Origin: a virus
Lineage: Duplodnaviria; Heunggongvirae; Uroviricota; Caudoviricetes
IMG/VR virus record: IMGVR_UViG_2541047945_000011
Length of the DNA stretch: 48,989 bases
Strand: one strand, 5' to 3'
Shown here: positions 39,359-44,194 of the stretch, in pieces
Position numbering within the stretch: position 1 is the first letter of the stretch
Layout of the letters: each line of letters starts with the position of its first letter
Made by a program: the position numbers and the translations under genes
Notes under the pieces: generated by a model
What the model saw: the letters and a program-made list of their open reading frames with translations, nothing else
What the model was told of the DNA's origin: nothing
The model's database searches: none

Positions 39359-40187
39359 GGTTTACCCCCTTGCTGACTGGTTTAACCTGCGCCCTGACGT
39401 GATTTACGTGACGGGCGAATTTCTGCTCCCACTGAATCTGAGTAAACACTTTCCCCTCCGCTGCCCAGTAGTCCCGGAAGGCGGCAAGTTCAGCAGGTGT
39501 AAATTCTGTCTCCGGCAAAGCCATCCCCCACAACGCAGCCCGTCGTCGAAAATCCCGTGACGGATACCAGCTATCGGTCATCGGAAATTTTCCGATGGGT
39601 TCGCTCAGGCCATCCAGGAATACAAGGGGTGCTGCCTGTAACGACAAAACTTCCTGCTCACTGGTCGGAGCACTCTCGCGTGCGTTATGTGTGGGGTTTA
39701 GATCTTTGGGTTCCTTTGGGTTCCGTGATCCGTTTTTGGGTGTCTTTGATGGAAAATTTGGGTGTCTTTGGTTATTTTCCATGCAGCTAAGAGTTCCGTT
39801 TTTGGGTCTGTTTTGTGCTGAAACATAACCATTTTCGGTACTGTTTTTATTAACAGCACCAATTTTACCCACCTTTAAAGACTCCCGTTTTTGGGTGTAT
39901 TCAGGCTCGGCAACACTTTCTTCTACACCGATAAGTCGGTACACCACAATTTGCTTTGTTCTGCCTTTTCTCTCACCGGTATCAACAATTAACCCAATCT
40001 CCATCAGGTGTCGTAAGCTGTCCTGCACAGTCTTTTTGTTTAGTTCCGTTACTTCTGCCAGTGCAGATACAGACGGGTATGCACACAAATCGGCACCGCA
40101 CATATCAGCAAGCCAGGTCAATACAGACTTACTGGATGAACTGCCGGTTTTCACCTTTTTAGCCCATCGTAGTGCATCGATACTCAT
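39147..40187 (-). CDS. O: Replication initiator O-like protein with internal origin iterons
   Basis: N-terminal HTH replication-initiator domain; iteron-encoded PKNG-rich linker; ATG at 40187 with AGGGG RBS. Its 3' end overlaps P by about 210 nt in another frame. Confidence 0.7.
   Translation of the reverse strand: MSIDALRWAKKVKTGSSSSKSVLTWLADMCGADLCAYPSVSALAEVTELNKKTVQDSLRHLMEIGLIVDTGERKGRTKQIVVYRLIGVEESVAEPEYTQKRESLKVGKIGAVNKNSTENGYVSAQNRPKNGTLSCMENNQRHPNFPSKTPKNGSRNPKEPKDLNPTHNARESAPTSEQEVLSLQAAPLVFLDGLSEPIGKFPMTDSWYPSRDFRRRAALWGMALPETEFTPAELAAFRDYWAAEGKVFTQIQWEQKFARHVNHVRAQVKPVSKGVNHAAAPGGTASRAVQEIRAAREQWERENGFISDGNGLEAVGTHGGGLFEPLDPEERGRTFEALDCTDWRDD
39698..39900. repeat. ori: Replication origin iterons followed by an AT-rich segment, inside O
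   Basis: At least four copies of CGTTTTTGGGTGTCTTTG-like repeats (39735-39748, 39753-39773, 39796-39817, 39885-39900) and an AT-rich stretch at 39818-39870. Confidence 0.7.
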
Positions 40188-40710
40188 ACAAACCCCTGGC
40201 AGACATTTGTTTATCTGCAAAGTAATATTGATATTGCTGACGATACGCATGCTTGAAAGCAATAGCTTTTTCTATAAGCTCGTCAGTCTCACGTTCCACA
40301 ACAGCTGGATCCGCAAAAAGCAGCCCGGACTCCACCACATCGCCATATTCTTTGTTTAATCCGGCGATCATGTACGTAATGCTTTTTCCATCACTGATCT
40401 CACGATACAACCTGAAATCACTAATTCGGATAGCCTCCATAATTGCCGGAATCAGCGCCGTGAATTTTTTCCGCTTATCCCTGGTGTCGATAGCTTTCCA
40501 GCGTTCGAATATCTTCACCCGGTTAACGCCCAGCGCCCGTTGATCAACCTCGCCATCATTAAACGTGACGCGTTGAACATCGATGTTCGGGCGTTCTTTC
40601 AGAGCCCAGAATGCTTCCGTGATTAATATCGTCGCTTGCTCCTGTGTCATTCCTGGTCGACATACCCAGGCATCCAGAGCCTCACAAACCTGTTCAGGGG
40701 TGATTTTCAT
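40159..40710 (-). CDS. YdaT-like protein (candidate CII-analogue regulator)
   Basis: 183 aa in the cII position between cro-like and O; ...KKFTALIPAIMEAI... resembles Rac YdaT from memory. Confidence 0.45.
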   Translation of the reverse strand: MKITPEQVCEALDAWVCRPGMTQEQATILITEAFWALKERPNIDVQRVTFNDGEVDQRALGVNRVKIFERWKAIDTRDKRKKFTALIPAIMEAIRISDFRLYREISDGKSITYMIAGLNKEYGDVVESGLLFADPAVVERETDELIEKAIAFKHAYRQQYQYYFADKQMSARGLYEYRCTTMG

Positions 40711-40921
40711 TGTTCAACCGCCCCGCCCGCTTTGCCTTACGATATTCGTCATAAACTTTGGGGTCGTACTGAAGTTCCCCGACGGATGCCTCTTGCAGGC
40801 GCATCGCGCGACCTTCAGGAACCAGTTCCCCCCATTGAGAAACAGCAGATGGATCAACACCAGCAGCTTTCGCTACTTTGGCTTTCGTCCCATAAAAATT
40901 AATTACGTCTGATTTAAACAT
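40694..40921 (-). CDS. dicC: Cro-like repressor (DicC/YdaS-type HTH)
   Basis: ATG at 40921 with GGAGG RBS; ...GTKAKVAKAAGV...VSQW...VPEGRAMRLQEAS.GELQYDPKVY; divergent from the repressor. Confidence 0.75.
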   Translation of the reverse strand: MFKSDVINFYGTKAKVAKAAGVDPSAVSQWGELVPEGRAMRLQEASVGELQYDPKVYDEYRKAKRAGRLNNENHP

Positions 40922-40998
40922 CACCCCTCCAAAGTTGAGTTTTCTCAATAGTAATCATTCAAGGAATCTCAAGTCAAGGGTTATTAAGATATCTAAAT
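40922..40998. promoter_or_regulatory. Divergent operator/promoter region (OR-like) between the cro-like and repressor genes
   Basis: Inverted repeat TTGAG-TTTT-CTCAA at 40935-40948 and related half-sites; 77-bp intergenic space. Confidence 0.5.
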
Positions 40999-41406
40999 AT
41001 GAACGAGAAAACTTTAGGTCAACGAATTAGAGAAAGACGCAAACAGGTTGGTTTAAGTCAAAACGATTTAAGCAAAGCCGCTGGCGTATCTGGCTCATCA
41101 ATTTCACTATGGGAAAGCGACCATACAGCCCCGCGCGGGCAAAATTTGCATCGCCTGGCTGAGGTATTGCAATGTTCACCAACTTGGATACTGTTTGGTG
41201 ACGAGGATAAAACACCAGATCCACCAGTAGCACTCAACAGCGCCTTAGACTTATCGGAAGATGAGTTGGAGATGTTGCGATTGTATCGCGCACTTCCAAA
41301 ATCAGAGCAGCAAGCACAAATCAGCGAACTCCGTGCCCGCGTTGAGAATTTTAATCGCCTATTCACCGAGCTACTAGAAGCTCGCAAACGTAACAAACAT
41401 CAGTAA
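40999..41406 (+). CDS. dicA: DicA-type prophage repressor (HTH-XRE, no S24 peptidase domain)
   Basis: 135 aa; ...GQRIRERRKQVGLSQNDLSKAAGVS...SLWE...LHRLAEVLQCSPTWILFGDEDK...ELRARVENFNRLFTELLEARKRN matches Qin DicA from memory. Confidence 0.85.
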   Translation: MNEKTLGQRIRERRKQVGLSQNDLSKAAGVSGSSISLWESDHTAPRGQNLHRLAEVLQCSPTWILFGDEDKTPDPPVALNSALDLSEDELEMLRLYRALPKSEQQAQISELRARVENFNRLFTELLEARKRNKHQ

Positions 41407-41467
41407 CCCCCTTCACAAATTTTAAAGCCTTACATTTCAATGTATTGGCTTTATTTTGCATTAAATA

Positions 41468-41519
41468 TTGAGTTTTCTCATTAAAAATGCTTGACCAACA
41501 TTCACGAGAAAACTAAATT
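41468..41519 (+). promoter_or_regulatory. PL-like early promoter with operator copies (TTGACC-17 nt-TAAATT)
   Basis: Operator-like TTGAGTTTTCTCA at 41468-41480, -35 TTGACC at 41491-41496, -10 TAAATT at 41514-41519, second operator-like GAGAAAACTAA in the spacer. Confidence 0.45.
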
Positions 41520-41595
41520 ACCACCCATCAAGACACCGCACGGTGTTCTCAGCAAACAGTTCCGCTACCCGGCGTTAAGGGGTAATGAGGTCAGC

Positions 41596-41748
41596 ATGGA
41601 TACTATCGATCTTGGCAACAGCGAATCTCTGGTATGTGGTGTGTTCCCCAACCAGGACGGCACATTCACCGCCATGACGTATACCAAAAGCAAAACGTTT
41701 AAAACCGAAGCTGGCGCGCGTCGCTGGTTAGCAAGAAACTCCGACTGA
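41596..41748 (+). CDS. ydfA: YdfA-like small protein (50 aa), first gene of the dicB-type early operon
   Basis: ATG at 41596 with GAGG RBS; MDTIDLGNSESLVCGVFPNQDGTFTAMTYTKSKTFKTEAGARRWLARNSD. The track's longer ORF starts at a TTG inside the promoter. Confidence 0.55.
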   Translation: MDTIDLGNSESLVCGVFPNQDGTFTAMTYTKSKTFKTEAGARRWLARNSD

Positions 41749-42098
41749 TGAGGTTGACGATGGAATTTAAAGATTTACCTCCTTCAATCCAGGAGATTGC
41801 AGCACACACACTTCGTCATCGTCTGAACGAACTTGAATTGGAATCGGTAACAAAAAAAGACACTGATAATATGGCTCGTAATGTGCGCGATGCGTTTACT
41901 GGGCTGTTTTCAGATACAGCTTTAAATATCCATGGCACAGAGGATACAGCAAAACAATTTGCAGAAAAAGAAGTGGAAGATCCCAGTTCAAAGAGCCAGA
42001 AACAGCCAAACAACCATGAAATTAACGAACTGCTTCTGGCAACAGGCTTCATAAATATTAACGAATATGAACGCCGTAAAAAAATGTTATCTGATTAA
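41748..42098 (+). CDS. Hypothetical acidic helical protein (116 aa)
   Basis: Start overlaps the ydfA-like stop (TGATG); no recognised family. Confidence 0.5.
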   Translation: MRLTMEFKDLPPSIQEIAAHTLRHRLNELELESVTKKDTDNMARNVRDAFTGLFSDTALNIHGTEDTAKQFAEKEVEDPSSKSQKQPNNHEINELLLATGFININEYERRKKMLSD

Positions 42099-42281
42099 TC
42101 CATCAAGATATCTTTTTAGCATCAGCGTTTCTACGTTATTAAAACCATCAGATTTTAACATAGCTTCGATTCGCTGATTTAAATTGCCAACTAACTGTTG
42201 ATACTGAGTAGATGGAAGCATGTGTACCAGCTCCTTGAGAACACAATAACATGCACCAAGTTTTAACTCCTGCTCTGACAT
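42087..42281 (-). CDS. Hypothetical small protein (64 aa), convergent to the early operon
   Basis: ATG at 42281 with GGAGGA RBS; AT-rich codons; MSEQELKLGACYCVLKELVHMLPSTQYQQLVGNLNQRIEAMLKSDGFNNVETLMLKRYLDGLIR. Confidence 0.45.
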   Translation of the reverse strand: MSEQELKLGACYCVLKELVHMLPSTQYQQLVGNLNQRIEAMLKSDGFNNVETLMLKRYLDGLIR

Positions 42282-42619
42282 TTTATCCTCCATTGAGGTT
42301 ACTGGTTGAGAATGGAGACCTCTCGTGACAGCGTGTGGTCGTGCGCCGGACACGGATAAGAATCCGGCACTGACAGTTTACTGAAAGGATATTTCCATGA
42401 AAAGTCAGACCATAACGCGAAAGCGCACGGCGAGGTAGCTGGTTCATAGATAGCCTGTCGTTAAATTTTCGTCGACCGTGCGCTTCCGGTTGTGACACTC
42501 CGCGAAATGGCGCGGCGGTAAGTATGACGGGGTTATTCCTTCCCCGTTGAGGACACCGGGTTGTCAGGTTGACCATACGCTTAAGTGACAACCCCGCTGC
42601 AACGCCCTCTGTTATCAAT

Positions 42620-42677
42620 TTTCTGGTGACTTTTGGCGGTATCAGTTCTACTCCGTGACTGCTCTGCCGCCCTTTTT
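42620..42677 (+). ncRNA. dicF: DicF small RNA
   Basis: TTTCTGGTGACTTTTGGCGGTATCAGTTCTACTCCGTGACTGCTCTGCCGCCCTTTTT matches Qin DicF from memory; sits between the ydfA-like genes and dicB as in Qin. Confidence 0.8.
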
Positions 42678-42965
42678 AAAGTGAATTTTGTGATGCGGTG
42701 AATGCGGCTCAGCGCACGCGGAACAGTTAAAACAAGCGGTCTTTTACGGGCGTAACGGGAATGCTCTGTATCCGACGTTAATTGTTAACTGGTTAACGTC
42801 ACCTGGAGGCACCAGGCACCGCATCAACAAAGTTCACTTCGGTGATGAAAGGTAGAGAAAATGTTGAATGTAGCTATTGAAAACCAGAACGGGTGGAATT
42901 ATAGTGCACCTGCACCTCATAAAACGGGTGCCGGGCGTGGAAACCCGAAATCATTCACGGCGCAT

Positions 42966-42988
42966 AACCGCGCTCAGGCGGTTTTTTT
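42966..42988 (+). terminator. Putative intrinsic terminator in the leader upstream of rha
   Basis: AACCGC-gctcag-GCGGTT followed by TTTTTTTA. Confidence 0.4.
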
Positions 42989-43157
42989 ATGCGTTAAGCA
43001 CAGCCACATTCGCATTATGGTGGGGCGTGCAGGGCAGCCGCAAGGCTGGCCGGGTTCCGTGATGACCGGTATTTCCACCCCTGTACGTCTCACCACCCTT
43101 ATGGTCGTGGAAAACCTCGGTGGTGAGTTAATCAAATTCATCGCGGAGGCTGCCATC

Positions 43158-43715
43158 ATGGCTACTATCCTTACCCTTTCTCACCCTGACGTAACCATCG
43201 AAAATGGTCGCGCTGTCACTACGTCTGTTGCGATCGCCGAGTTCTTTGGCAAACGCCACGAACGAGTGTTGGATAAAATTCGCAATCTGGACTGTTCAGC
43301 AAAATTCACTGAGCACAATTTTGTGTCAAGCGAATACACCGACTCAACCGGGCGCAAACTCCCAATGTACCAAATCACCAAAAACGGCTTCGTTTTCCTG
43401 GTGATGGGCTTCACTGGCAAAAAAGCCGCTGCATTTAAAGAGGCATACATTGCTGAGTTCGACCGCATGGAAGCAGAACTGCGCCAGAATAACGCCCCGT
43501 CTCCCGACAAAATGATTCACGGGGACGGACGCACCCTGGTTATCCGTCTCGACGAACACGGCAATATCAAATTCACTGAAACCGTTCCTGACGGCGCAAT
43601 GGTCTGCACCCTGGATACCTTCCGGTTTTATCTGGAGAAACAAGGATGGACTCTTGTAAACCGGAGCGCAATTAAAAATATGACTGTGGAGCAATTGCTA
43701 AAAATTCATTGTTGA
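43158..43715 (+). CDS. rha: Rha-family phage regulatory protein
   Basis: ATG at 43158 with GGAGG RBS; ...TTSVAIAEFFGKRHERVLDKIRNL...YQITKNGFVFLVMGFTGKKAAAFKEAYIAEFDRMEAEL matches the Rha domain. The track's N-terminal extension was rejected. Confidence 0.7.
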   Translation: MATILTLSHPDVTIENGRAVTTSVAIAEFFGKRHERVLDKIRNLDCSAKFTEHNFVSSEYTDSTGRKLPMYQITKNGFVFLVMGFTGKKAAAFKEAYIAEFDRMEAELRQNNAPSPDKMIHGDGRTLVIRLDEHGNIKFTETVPDGAMVCTLDTFRFYLEKQGWTLVNRSAIKNMTVEQLLKIHC

Positions 43716-43725
43716 GGACGCGATA

Positions 43726-43914
43726 ATGGAAACGTCACTACCAAACGTTAATACGTCTGAAGGTTGTTTTGATATTGGTGTTCTGCTCAGTAACCGGGAG
43801 TTTACGGAAGATGCCATTAAGATGAGAAAATATGAACCTTATCTTCTCAATGATAATTCCATACTTTCCAGAATTGCCCTTCTTGAACTTGGTATTATCG
43901 GAGAACAGCAGTGA
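43726..43914 (+). CDS. dicB: Cell division inhibitor DicB
   Basis: 62 aa; METSLPNVNTSEGCFDIGVLLSNREFTEDAIKMRK... matches Qin DicB. Confidence 0.8.
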   Translation: METSLPNVNTSEGCFDIGVLLSNREFTEDAIKMRKYEPYLLNDNSILSRIALLELGIIGEQQ

Positions 43915-44099
43915 CTTCAGCATTTGCACTGGTGATGACCGTTTTTCTTATAACGGGTGAGCCACAAAATGTGATTACCGGAATTTATGACAGTAAGTCA
44001 TCCTGCATTCAGGTAAGGGACGAACAAAAAATCCCCGGTGAATGCCTCCCGTTAAAAAAAGTATCGCTGAACCTGAATAACGAAATACCGGCTGGATAA
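43911..44099 (+). CDS. ydfD: YdfD-like small membrane (lysis) protein
   Basis: GTG start overlapping the dicB stop; ...SAFALVMTVFLITGEP...EQKIPGECLP...NNEIPAG resembles Qin YdfD. Confidence 0.65.
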   Translation: MTSAFALVMTVFLITGEPQNVITGIYDSKSSCIQVRDEQKIPGECLPLKKVSLNLNNEIPAG

Positions 44100-44194
44100 C
44101 CCGCCAGCCATATTAACGCCATACCAACGGATTAAAAATGCCAGCAATGGCAGGGATTCGTTCACCCTGAAATCTGTAATGAGGTTAAAACACA

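What the first reader, a model, noticed from the sequence alone, without database searches (positions are those of the whole stretch)
42620..43715. DicF sRNA conserved, with a Rha-family regulator inserted between dicF and dicB
The 58-nt DicF sequence is intact, including its terminator. In Qin, as I recall, dicB follows dicF directly; here a ~480-bp leader (with a terminator at 42966-42988) and a Rha-family gene lie between them. DicF and DicB both inhibit host cell division on induction, and Rha proteins have been linked to host-factor-dependent control of lytic growth.
Basis: partly seen in the sequence, partly recalled or inferred. Interest (0 to 1): 0.4.

Follow-up and report, generated by a model that had tools for sequence, protein, structure and literature searches.

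The report
DicF plus IsrK/C4-controlled antirepressor cassette
Between the cell-division inhibitors dicF and dicB, this E. coli prophage carries an 874-bp inserted cassette in which two known small RNAs (IsrK-like and C4-like) control a Rha-type antirepressor-like gene, a known kind of phage switch in a new place.

Summary
DicF is at 42620-42672 (Rfam 71.5 bits, terminator intact, two substitutions vs K-12). About 874 bp (42827-43700) carrying a Rha-domain gene lie between dicF and dicB, compared with Qin and phage Tritos.

The "leader" is not a plain leader. The likely rha start is ATG 43158.

Across 30 distinct sequence variants, the two exposed C4 elements covary three ways. They covary with two sites in IsrK (a1, b1) and with two sites in the rha leader (a2, b2; b2 overlaps the Shine-Dalgarno). 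At least 5 a-types and about 11 b-types are reassorted.

This is the logic of the phage P1/P7 immI (c4-icd-ant) region and of Gifsy-1 isrK-orf45-anrP. C4 masks the rha ribosome site, and IsrK carries copies of the C4 target and relieves the block.

A stop-free frame runs from an AUG inside C4 into rha without coding-like substitution patterns. RefSeq therefore annotates a 284-aa ORF across both RNAs.

Whether Rha is an antirepressor of the resident DicA-like repressor is inferred, not shown.

Verdict: a new member of a known kind, of moderate-to-low interest.

The parts
42620..42677 (+). DicF small RNA (53 nt, 42620-42672) plus terminator U-tract. Differs from K-12 at G12U and U29C.
   Evidence: Rfam RF00039 71.5 bits vs gathering score 48. 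Aligned to K-12 and Tritos. Fold and target duplexes.
42673..42826 (+). Spacer shared with Qin and Tritos (the normal dicF-to-dicB spacer, left part). Weakly STnc100-like.
   Evidence: Alignment A1. Sub-threshold RF02076 match at 42684-42831, 35.6 bits vs gathering score 47.
42827..43700 (+). Inserted cassette relative to Qin/Tritos: promoter, isrK, C4, leader and almost all of rha. The last four rha codons and the stop come from the Qin-type sequence just upstream of dicB.
   Evidence: Alignments A1 and A2. Phage hits that join dicF directly to dicB. Junction sequences.
42877..42905 (+). Promoter of isrK: -35 TTGAAA (42877-42882), 17-nt spacer, -10 TATAGT (42900-42905). Predicted start near 42912.
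   Evidence: Best sigma-70 match in 40600-44300, 10 of 12. 95-100% conserved across nearly all of the related loci that carry the cassette.
42912..42990 (+). IsrK-like small RNA. Carries a1 (GUGGAAA, 42937-42943) and b1 (UCAUUCACGG, 42951-42960), both complementary to C4, and an intrinsic terminator (stem 42966-42983 plus T-run).
   Evidence: RF01394 67.7 bits vs gathering score 50. Terminator scan. a1:a' 7 pairs, 100% paired, 6 compensatory; b1:b' 9 pairs, 90.7% paired, 6 compensatory. RF03163 c4-a1b1 only 25.7 bits vs gathering score 46.7.
43013..43100 (+). C4-type antisense RNA. Long closing stem and two hairpins. Recognition elements b' (loop UUCCGUGAUGA, 43055-43065) and a' (UUUCCAC, 43072-43078).
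   Evidence: RF01695 81.9 bits vs gathering score 45. Stems keep pairing with compensatory changes: 27 pairs, 98.7-100% paired in each of the three internal helices.
43017..43157 (+). Upstream open frame of 47 codons. It starts at the AUG in the 5' strand of the C4 stem and runs, without a stop, in frame into rha. It corresponds to Gifsy-1 orf45.
   Evidence: No in-frame stop in 23 of 24 distinct variants, against 10 and 9 distinct stop sites in the other two frames. Same in four diverged phages. No third-position excess.
43101..43157 (+). rha leader with C4 target sites a2 (GUGGAAA, 43107-43113) and b2 (UCAUCGCGGAG, 43138-43148). b2 overlaps the Shine-Dalgarno GGAGG (43145-43149).
   Evidence: b':b2 11 pairs, 88.8% paired, 6 compensatory. 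Register-free check: cognate a':a2 7-8 bp and b':b2 9-12 bp in every type, non-cognate about 5-6.5 bp.
43158..43715 (+). rha, 185 aa. N-terminal Phage_pRha domain (aa 21-105) and a C-terminal domain (aa ~100-181) distantly related to the C-terminus of Gifsy-1 AnrP.
   Evidence: Pfam PF09669 107.6 bits. phrog_995 2.4e-83, phrog_25059 and phrog_2379 (2.5e-8) for the C-terminus. BLASTP vs AnrP E=0.007. Third-position substitution excess in homologues.
43726..43914 (+). dicB, 10 nt after the rha stop, with no terminator in between.
   Evidence: Pfam DicB 125 bits. Terminator scan. Sequence.
43911..44099 (+). ydfD-like DUF1482 gene. Its GTG start overlaps the dicB stop.
   Evidence: Pfam PF07358 56.4 bits.
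40999..41406 (+). DicA-type short repressor, 135 aa, HTH only. A possible target of Rha.
   Evidence: Pfam HTH_3. 56% identical to K-12 DicA. 28% identical, E=2e-10, to the Gifsy-1 repressor.

Best explanation
An 874-bp cassette has been inserted into the dicF-dicB stretch of the early operon of a Qin-like lambdoid prophage. The cassette is an antisense-RNA switch of the P1 immI / Gifsy-1 isrK type.

Proposed sequence of events:
1. Its own promoter (42877-42905) makes the 77-nt IsrK-like RNA, which mostly stops at its intrinsic terminator.
2. Transcripts that read through the terminator, or that arrive from the DicA-controlled promoter through dicF, continue into a C4-type RNA and the rha message.
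3. Two exposed elements of C4 (a', b') pair with a2 and b2 in the rha leader. b2 overlaps the rha Shine-Dalgarno, so rha translation is blocked.
4. IsrK carries copies of the same target sites (a1, b1). It pairs with the same C4 elements, so excess IsrK frees the leader and switches rha on.
5. A stop-free frame starting at an AUG buried in the C4 stem runs in frame into rha. Ribosomes that start there (as shown for orf45 in Gifsy-1) would melt the structures and make an N-terminally extended Rha.
6. Rha is most likely an antirepressor-type protein that promotes prophage derepression.
7. Because dicB and ydfD follow without a terminator, read-through from the cassette should also express these division and lysis genes.

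Shown here: the RNA family matches, the insert boundaries, the three-way covariation, the conserved open frame and the protein domains.

Inferred: the direction of regulation (by analogy with P1/P7 and Gifsy-1), the processing of C4, the target of Rha, and co-transcription with dicB.
For: - Rfam matches above the gathering scores: DicF, isrK and C4.
- Promoter and terminator scans.
- Insert boundaries against Qin and Tritos.
- The same context recurs in 80 IMG/VR loci.
- Covariation on 30 distinct sequences: a1:a' 100% paired with 6 of 7 pairs compensatory; b1:b' 6 of 9 compensatory; b':b2 6 of 11 compensatory. No shuffle of 500 reached the observed values. Slid controls gave about 40% paired against 93-98% observed.
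- Cognate versus non-cognate duplex lengths.
- Gifsy-1 has the same order isrK-C4-antirepressor, and Rfam's c4-a1b1 family overlaps its isrK.
- The published compensatory mutants in Gifsy-1 (G28A/C162U and G31A/C159U) fall, by my mapping, in a1 and a' (PMC4825925).
- IsrK supplied in trans activates anrP translation 139-fold, and this depends on orf45 (PMC4825925).
- The open frame from the C4 AUG is kept in frame with rha.
- Antirepressor families match both Rha domains.
- The resident repressor is of the short DicA/GfoR class, which lacks the RecA cleavage site and is controlled by antirepressors (PMC10448788).
Against: - No expression data exist for this locus.
- Rfam's c4-a1b1 model scores below its threshold here (25.7 vs 46.7 bits).
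- In the window's own type, b1 pairs with C4 only with a one-base bulge (6+3 bp).
- Rha shares only a distant C-terminal similarity with AnrP and has no solved relative.
- Rha C-terminal domains 99-100% identical to the window's sit next to repressors that are 100%, 53% or 23-27% identical to the window's. This does not fit a strictly cognate antirepressor.
- The prophage also carries a Rem homologue, 93% identical to the proven DicA antirepressor, so Rha is not the only candidate.
Confidence: 0.7

Rival explanations
1. The RNA switch works as described, but Rha is not an antirepressor of the neighbouring DicA-like repressor. It would instead be a DNA-binding regulator, act on another prophage's repressor, or have some other role such as the host-factor-dependent growth effect known for rha of phi80 and P22.
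For: The same Rha C-terminal domain is found next to very different repressors. The Phage_pRha domain is annotated as a regulator. P22 Rha is 46% identical over aa 12-110. A Rem homologue is already present for DicA-type repressors.
Against: Both halves of the protein match PHROG families annotated as antirepressors, including AnrP's own family. In P1 and Gifsy-1 the protein downstream of C4 is an antirepressor (PMC4825925).
Confidence: 0.35
2. IsrK acts mainly as described for Gifsy-1. It does not titrate free, processed C4. Instead, short IsrK in trans displaces the cis IsrK segment from the C4 region of the long transcript. That switches the fold so that the ribosome site of the upstream ORF opens, and rha is then translated by ribosomes coming from that ORF.
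For: Experimental data for Gifsy-1 (PMC4825925). The conserved in-frame upstream ORF here. The AUG at 43017 lies in the C4 closing stem.
Against: That model does not use a2 and b2, yet these covary with the C4 loops and b2 overlaps the rha Shine-Dalgarno. The two models are not mutually exclusive.
Confidence: 0.4
3. The annotated 284-aa ORF (42861-43715) is the real gene, and the small-RNA matches inside it are incidental.
For: RefSeq annotates it. The frame is stop-free in most variants back to 42861. Long in-frame ORFs are annotated in cdtI, F1055 and Stx2a_1447.
Against: Three Rfam families match above threshold. Compensatory pairing is extensive. The isrK-C4-leader part shows flat codon-position substitution and almost no synonymous changes, against a clear third-position excess in Rha. 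A promoter and a terminator lie inside the ORF. Natural variants L041 and L057 break the long frame with a 1-nt change, yet keep the module. A strong SD+ATG at 43158 is invariant.
Confidence: 0.05
4. One reading: a plain 5' leader with an attenuating terminator in front of a Rha regulator.
For: A terminator is present at 42966-42988.
Against: The terminator belongs to an IsrK homologue with its own promoter. A C4 RNA follows, and the variable patches covary three ways.
Confidence: 0.05

Closest known systems
Gifsy-1 isrK-orf45(STnc1160)-anrP-isrJ locus of Salmonella (Hershko-Shalev et al. 2016, PMC4825925)
   Same: Same order: promoter, IsrK with terminator, C4-type RNA containing the start of an upstream ORF, leader with a2/b2, then a two-domain antirepressor-like protein of about 185 aa. 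The host prophage likewise has a short, non-cleavable repressor. The a1:a' pairing matches the published compensatory mutants.
   Different: Here the upstream ORF is fused in frame to the gene, whereas Gifsy-1 orf45 ends in an ATGA overlap. The N-terminal domain is Phage_pRha, not ORF6N. There is no isrJ downstream; dicB follows. The cassette lies after dicF in the early-left operon, not after the Q-like antiterminator.
immI region of phages P1 and P7 (c4 antisense RNA, icd, ant)
   Same: A C4 RNA whose two recognition elements pair with a1/b1 upstream and a2/b2 downstream. a2/b2 cover a ribosome binding site. Specificity types differ by matched changes on both sides. (P1/P7 details are from established knowledge; the Rfam C4 and c4-a1b1 families are.)
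   Different: There is no separate icd gene. b2 overlaps the Shine-Dalgarno of the antirepressor-like gene itself. a1/b1 lie on a separately terminated small RNA. The protein is Rha-type, not P1 Ant. Many more specificity types are seen (at least 5 a-types and about 11 b-types).
dicBF operon of the Qin cryptic prophage, E. coli K-12
   Same: dicC/dicA-like pair, ydfA-like gene, dicF, dicB and ydfD in the same order and orientation.
   Different: The repressor is only 56% identical. DicF has two substitutions. The 874-bp cassette separates dicF from dicB.
isrK-C4-Rha modules between cII/ydaT-like and O genes of Stx-converting and related phages (Stx2a_1447, cdtI, F1055, Stx1_499)
   Same: About 70-77% DNA identity over isrK, C4 and the Rha N-domain. 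Same in-frame upstream ORF.
   Different: Different genomic position, a different promoter region and a different C-terminal domain.

Membership tests
DicF RNA (Rfam RF00039) | Covariance-model score at or above the gathering score | tested here: met
   71.5 bits vs 48.
DicF RNA (Rfam RF00039) | Lies in a dicA ... dicF-dicB operon and ends in an intrinsic terminator | tested here: met
   Gene order. Stem plus U-tract retained, fold -15.3 vs -15.9 kcal/mol for K-12.
DicF RNA (Rfam RF00039) | Loop complementary to the ftsZ ribosome binding site; 5' end complementary to xylR and pykA | tested here: inconclusive
   Predicted duplexes only. ftsZ -16.5 to -15.2 kcal/mol, pykA unchanged, xylR -20.3 to -15.3 kcal/mol. 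Pairing regions taken from PMC5069750.
DicF RNA (Rfam RF00039) | Processing by RNase E and RNase III, and Hfq binding | not testable with these tools
   Needs Northern blots or co-immunoprecipitation.
IsrK (Rfam RF01394) | Covariance-model score at or above the gathering score | tested here: met
   67.7 bits vs 50.
IsrK (Rfam RF01394) | Own promoter and Rho-independent terminator, followed by C4/orf45 and an antirepressor gene | tested here: met
   Sequence level only: promoter 10 of 12 and terminator; order of features.
IsrK (Rfam RF01394) | Short form activates translation of the read-through message in trans | not testable with these tools
   Shown only for Gifsy-1 (PMC4825925).
C4 antisense RNA (Rfam RF01695) / P1-P7 immI | Covariance-model score at or above the gathering score, with the stems supported | tested here: met
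   81.9 bits vs 45. Each of the three internal helices is 98.7-100% paired, with compensatory changes.
C4 antisense RNA (Rfam RF01695) / P1-P7 immI | a' and b' complementary to a2 and b2 at a downstream ribosome binding site | tested here: met
   b':b2 is 11 bp and overlaps GGAGG; a':a2 is 7 bp. Both covary across types.
C4 antisense RNA (Rfam RF01695) / P1-P7 immI | a1/b1 copies upstream (Rfam RF03163 c4-a1b1) | tested here: inconclusive
   The Rfam model scores 25.7 bits, below its gathering score of 46.7. Even so, a1:a' and b1:b' pair and covary.
C4 antisense RNA (Rfam RF01695) / P1-P7 immI | A separate icd gene between c4 and ant, and a P1-type Ant protein | tested here: not met
   No separate ORF: the upstream frame starts inside C4 and is fused to rha. 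The protein is Phage_pRha.
Gifsy-1 isrK-orf45-anrP-isrJ locus | orf45 ends at the antirepressor start (ATGA overlap), giving translational coupling | tested here: not met
   Here the frame is continuous with rha. The Gifsy-1 overlap was confirmed.
Gifsy-1 isrK-orf45-anrP-isrJ locus | AnrP orthologue downstream | tested here: inconclusive
   The N-domains differ (pRha vs ORF6N). The C-domain is distantly related (phrog_2379 E=2.5e-8, BLASTP E=0.007).
Gifsy-1 isrK-orf45-anrP-isrJ locus | isrJ downstream and a Q-like antiterminator gene upstream | tested here: not met
   No isrJ match in the window. dicF lies upstream and dicB downstream.
Rha family (Pfam PF09669) | Phage_pRha domain above the Pfam cutoff | tested here: met
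   107.6 bits vs 29.9, aa 21-105.
Antirepressors of DicA/GfoR-type repressors (Rem, GfoA) | Homology to Rem or GfoA, or demonstrated relief of DicA repression | not tested
   Rha was not compared directly with Rem or GfoA. A separate Rem homologue (93% identical to K-12 Rem) is at 34257-34508. A functional assay is not possible with these tools.

The most novel reading that the evidence does not exclude
The stop-free, non-coding-like frame running from upstream of isrK (ATG 42861), or at least from the AUG inside C4, in frame into rha may be a selected 'translate-through' bypass.

When the DicA-controlled early operon fires, ribosomes arriving from upstream would run through the IsrK terminator and the C4 fold. 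That would prevent termination and antisense control, and avoid polarity on dicB, exo, xis and int. Transcripts from the cassette's own promoter lack that start and would stay under RNA control.

Together with at least 5 x 11 reassorted recognition types, this would make the cassette a two-input switch with a combinatorial RNA 'address' that lets co-resident prophages tell each other apart.
Probability: 0.2. Interest if true: 0.6.

Novelty: new member of a known kind. Interest (0 to 1): 0.33.

Why it matters
The cassette places an RNA-controlled antirepressor-type gene, with its own promoter, directly upstream of dicB in the operon that also makes DicF. In these prophages the cell-division inhibitors may therefore respond to the IsrK/C4 switch as well as to the DicA repressor.

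The many matched recognition types give natural compensatory-mutation evidence for both C4-IsrK and C4-leader pairing. That evidence complements the Gifsy-1 genetics.

The analysis also shows that genome annotation (RefSeq) and the PHROG profiles include an ORF extension drawn across two small-RNA genes.

Tried and rejected
- **Whole-RNA duplex prediction.** RNAduplex on the full RNAs gave over-extended, uninformative duplexes. I replaced it with column-based pair counts, ungapped cognate/non-cognate comparisons and sub-region duplexes.
- **a':a2 in the MAFFT alignment.** This helix is out of register for types with a 3-nt deletion, which gives a misleading 74.7% paired. The register-free check resolves it.
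- **LexA box.** None lies near the isrK promoter or near rem, so SOS control through LexA is not supported at these promoters.
- **Solved structures.** No solved structure is related to Rha by sequence.
- **C-terminal domain.** No Pfam family matches it.
- **Literature.** Searches found no description of an isrK-C4-rha cassette inside a dicBF operon. The library is incomplete, so this is not proof of absence.
- **Not run.** I skipped the large protein-homology searches and structure prediction, because they would not decide the target of Rha.
Full report
**Observation**

The window is an E. coli lambdoid prophage, 100% identical over 42283-43930 to several complete genomes. The immunity region is Qin-like:
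- a P22-Cro-like gene at 40694-40948 (- strand);
- a 135-aa HTH repressor at 40999-41406, 56% identical to K-12 DicA;
- a ydfA-like DUF1391 gene;
- DicF;
- later dicB (43726-43914) and a ydfD-like DUF1482 gene.

DicF matches Rfam RF00039 at 42621-42672 with 71.5 bits (gathering score 48). Against K-12 it has two substitutions, G12U and U29C, and it keeps its terminator.

In Qin and in phage Tritos, dicB starts about 174 nt after dicF. Here 1053 nt separate them. Alignments place an insert of about 874 bp at 42827-43700. The last four codons of the Rha ORF are supplied by the Qin-type sequence just before dicB.

**What the "leader" is**

A whole-window Rfam scan finds two further small-RNA genes between dicF and rha:
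- isrK (RF01394) at 42912-42988, 67.7 bits against 50;
- C4 antisense RNA (RF01695) at 43013-43100, 81.9 bits against 45.

The best sigma-70-like site in 40600-44300 is TTGAAA-17-TATAGT at 42877-42905, placed to start transcription at the first base of the isrK match.

The Rha ORF has an invariant GGAGG (43145-43149) eight bases before ATG 43158. From there it encodes 185 aa with a Phage_pRha domain.

**Distribution**

- 309 of 5426 complete E. coli genomes hold at least 80% of 42283-43930.
- In the phage collection, most related phages join dicF directly to dicB.
- Eighty IMG/VR loci encode Rha at 79-100% identity. Nearly all keep the order Qin-type dicF-side spacer (with a recognisable dicF in many), promoter, isrK, C4, rha, and many also keep dicB.
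- The same isrK-C4-Rha(N-domain) unit, at about 70-77% DNA identity, sits between the cII/ydaT-like gene and the replication gene O in Stx-converting phages, cdtI and Salmonella phages.
- In Gifsy-1 the order isrK, C4, antirepressor (anrP), isrJ is confirmed. Rfam's family "a1, b1 targets of C4" (RF03163) overlaps isrK there.

**Covariation**

I aligned 40 distinct versions of the cassette. The promoter is 95-100% conserved. Almost all variation falls in six short patches:
- two in IsrK: a1 (42937-42943) and b1 (42951-42960);
- two in C4: the hairpin loop b' (43055-43065) and the single-stranded a' (43072-43078);
- two in the rha leader: a2 (43107-43113) and b2 (43138-43148).

a1 and a2 are the same sense and both complement a'. 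b1 and b2 both complement b'. b2 overlaps the Shine-Dalgarno.

Pair counts on 30 distinct sequences:

| Helix | Pairs | % paired | Pairs with changes on both sides |
|---|---|---|---|
| a1:a' | 7 | 100 | 6 |
| b1:b' | 9 | 90.7 | 6 |
| b':b2 | 11 | 88.8 | 6 |

No shuffle of 500 reached the observed values. Sliding the partner by 1-3 columns drops pairing to about 40%.

The MAFFT alignment puts a2 out of register in types with a 3-nt deletion. A register-free check shows cognate a':a1 and a':a2 of 7-8 bp in all five a-types, and cognate b':b2 of 9-12 bp in all b-types. Non-cognate combinations give about 5-6.5 bp.

The a- and b-types are reassorted. For example, the window's b-type occurs with three different a-types.

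By my mapping, the compensatory mutants that define "helix b-I" in Gifsy-1 (G28A/C162U and G31A/C159U; PMC4825925) lie in a1 and a'. The natural variation here therefore supports the same pairing. It also adds the C4-leader pairing known from P1/P7.

**The open frame**

An AUG in the 5' strand of the C4 closing stem (43017) corresponds to the first AUG of Gifsy-1 orf45. It opens a 47-codon frame that runs without a stop into rha, in frame.
- In 24 distinct sequences this frame has no stop, apart from one singleton with a 1-nt insertion. The other two frames have 10 and 9 distinct stop sites.
- The most diverged variant (L076) and four diverged phages keep the in-frame fusion.
- In Gifsy-1, orf45 ends in an ATGA overlap with anrP.
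- Substitutions in the isrK-C4-leader segment are flat across codon positions and almost all non-synonymous. Both Rha domains show the usual third-position excess.

So the frame is kept open but the peptide is not conserved.

In most variants the frame is also open back to ATG 42861, 51 nt upstream of the IsrK start. It is broken in L041 and L057.

RefSeq annotates 42861-43715 as a 284-aa "Rha family" protein and annotates none of the RNAs. PHROG profiles for the family carry a ~100-residue N-terminal extension. [quoted passage not shown]

**The protein**

- The N-terminal 108 aa are shared with many Rha and antirepressor genes, including P22 rha at 46% identity.
- The C-terminal ~80 aa match a PHROG of unknown function and, at E=2.5e-8, the C-terminal part of AnrP's own PHROG.
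- BLASTP against AnrP is marginal, E=0.007. AnrP has an ORF6N N-domain.
- No solved relative was found.

The resident repressor belongs to the short DicA/GfoR class. That class lacks the RecA cleavage site and is relieved by antirepressors (PMC10448788).

Two points weaken the idea that Rha is the cognate antirepressor:
- The prophage also has a Rem homologue, 93% identical to the proven DicA antirepressor, at 34257-34508.
- Rha C-terminal domains 99-100% identical to the window's occur next to repressors that are 100%, 53% or about 25% identical to the window's.

**Mechanism**

Shown here: the elements, their order, the pairing potentials with covariation, and the open frame.

Inferred from P1/P7 and Gifsy-1:
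- C4 blocks the rha ribosome site.
- IsrK, which carries target copies, relieves the block.
- Ribosomes starting at the C4 AUG contribute to rha expression.
- Rha promotes derepression.

There is no terminator between rha and dicB, and the gap is 10 nt. Read-through from the cassette should therefore reach dicB and ydfD; this too is inferred. No LexA box lies near the isrK promoter.

**DicF substitutions**

- U29C turns one A-U pair of the ftsZ duplex into A·C. The predicted loop duplex goes from -16.5 to -15.2 kcal/mol.
- G12U breaks one pair of the xylR duplex (-20.3 to -15.3 kcal/mol).
- pykA is unchanged.
- Among related loci all four combinations of the two positions occur.

These predictions do not indicate loss of function.

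**Comparison and verdict**

The cassette works like P1/P7 immI and Gifsy-1 isrK-orf45-anrP, and it contains bona fide members of the isrK and C4 RNA families. It differs in four respects:
- the in-frame fusion of the upstream ORF;
- the Rha-type N-domain;
- the absence of icd and isrJ;
- its position inside a dicBF-type operon.

Literature searches found no description of that position. I rate it a new member of a known kind. Interest is moderate to low.

Noticed in passing
window 42861-43715: RefSeq (PGAP) annotates a 284-aa 'Rha family' ORF that runs across the isrK promoter, isrK and C4, and it annotates none of the three small RNAs. PHROG profiles of the family (phrog_995 and phrog_821) carry the same ~100-residue N-terminal extension.
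   Followed up: yes
window 34257-34508 (-): An 83-aa ORF 93% identical to K-12 Rem, the experimentally shown antirepressor of DicA. It lies next to a hok/sok locus (sok, Rfam RF01794, 34878-35049), as in Qin. No LexA box lies upstream.
   Followed up: partly
L080 1841-2443: One related locus has two tandem isrK-C4 units in front of rha.
   Followed up: no
L047 2367-2456 (also L056): In two loci a 90%-identical rha is preceded by a match to sRNA-Xcc1 (RF02221, 67.4 bits) in the same position, instead of by isrK-C4.
   Followed up: no
window 42684-42831: The Qin-type dicF-to-dicB spacer gives a sub-threshold match to STnc100 (35.6 bits vs 47). A full STnc100 copy lies at 30377-30566 (-).
   Followed up: no
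L003 3644-4003; L088 847-1200; L092 841-1200: In Stx2a_1447, F1055 and cdtI the stop-free frame continues about 360 nt further upstream of isrK, to an ATGA overlap with the ydaT-like gene. Substitutions there peak at codon position 2 of that frame, so a different frame (or the other strand) seems to be the one under coding selection.
   Followed up: partly
window 43119-43127: GGUGGUGAG, lying between a2 and b2, is nearly invariant across the variants. In the predicted fold of the read-through RNA it pairs with b2, while the adjacent CCUC (43115-43118) pairs with the Shine-Dalgarno (z-score of the 264-nt fold: -4.6).
   Followed up: partly
window 42087-42302 (-): A small ORF on the opposite strand between the ydfC-like gene and dicF matches phrog_4987 (unknown function, E=4.5e-49) over its full length.
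   Followed up: no
window 39839-39858: The only good LexA-box-like site in the window (TACTGTTTTTATTAACAGCA, 15 of 20 matches to consensus) lies inside the replication-gene region.
   Followed up: no
window 31266-31339, 31443-31515, 48012-48098 (all -): Three tRNA genes. The last lies near the integrase end of the prophage and may mark the attachment site.
   Followed up: no
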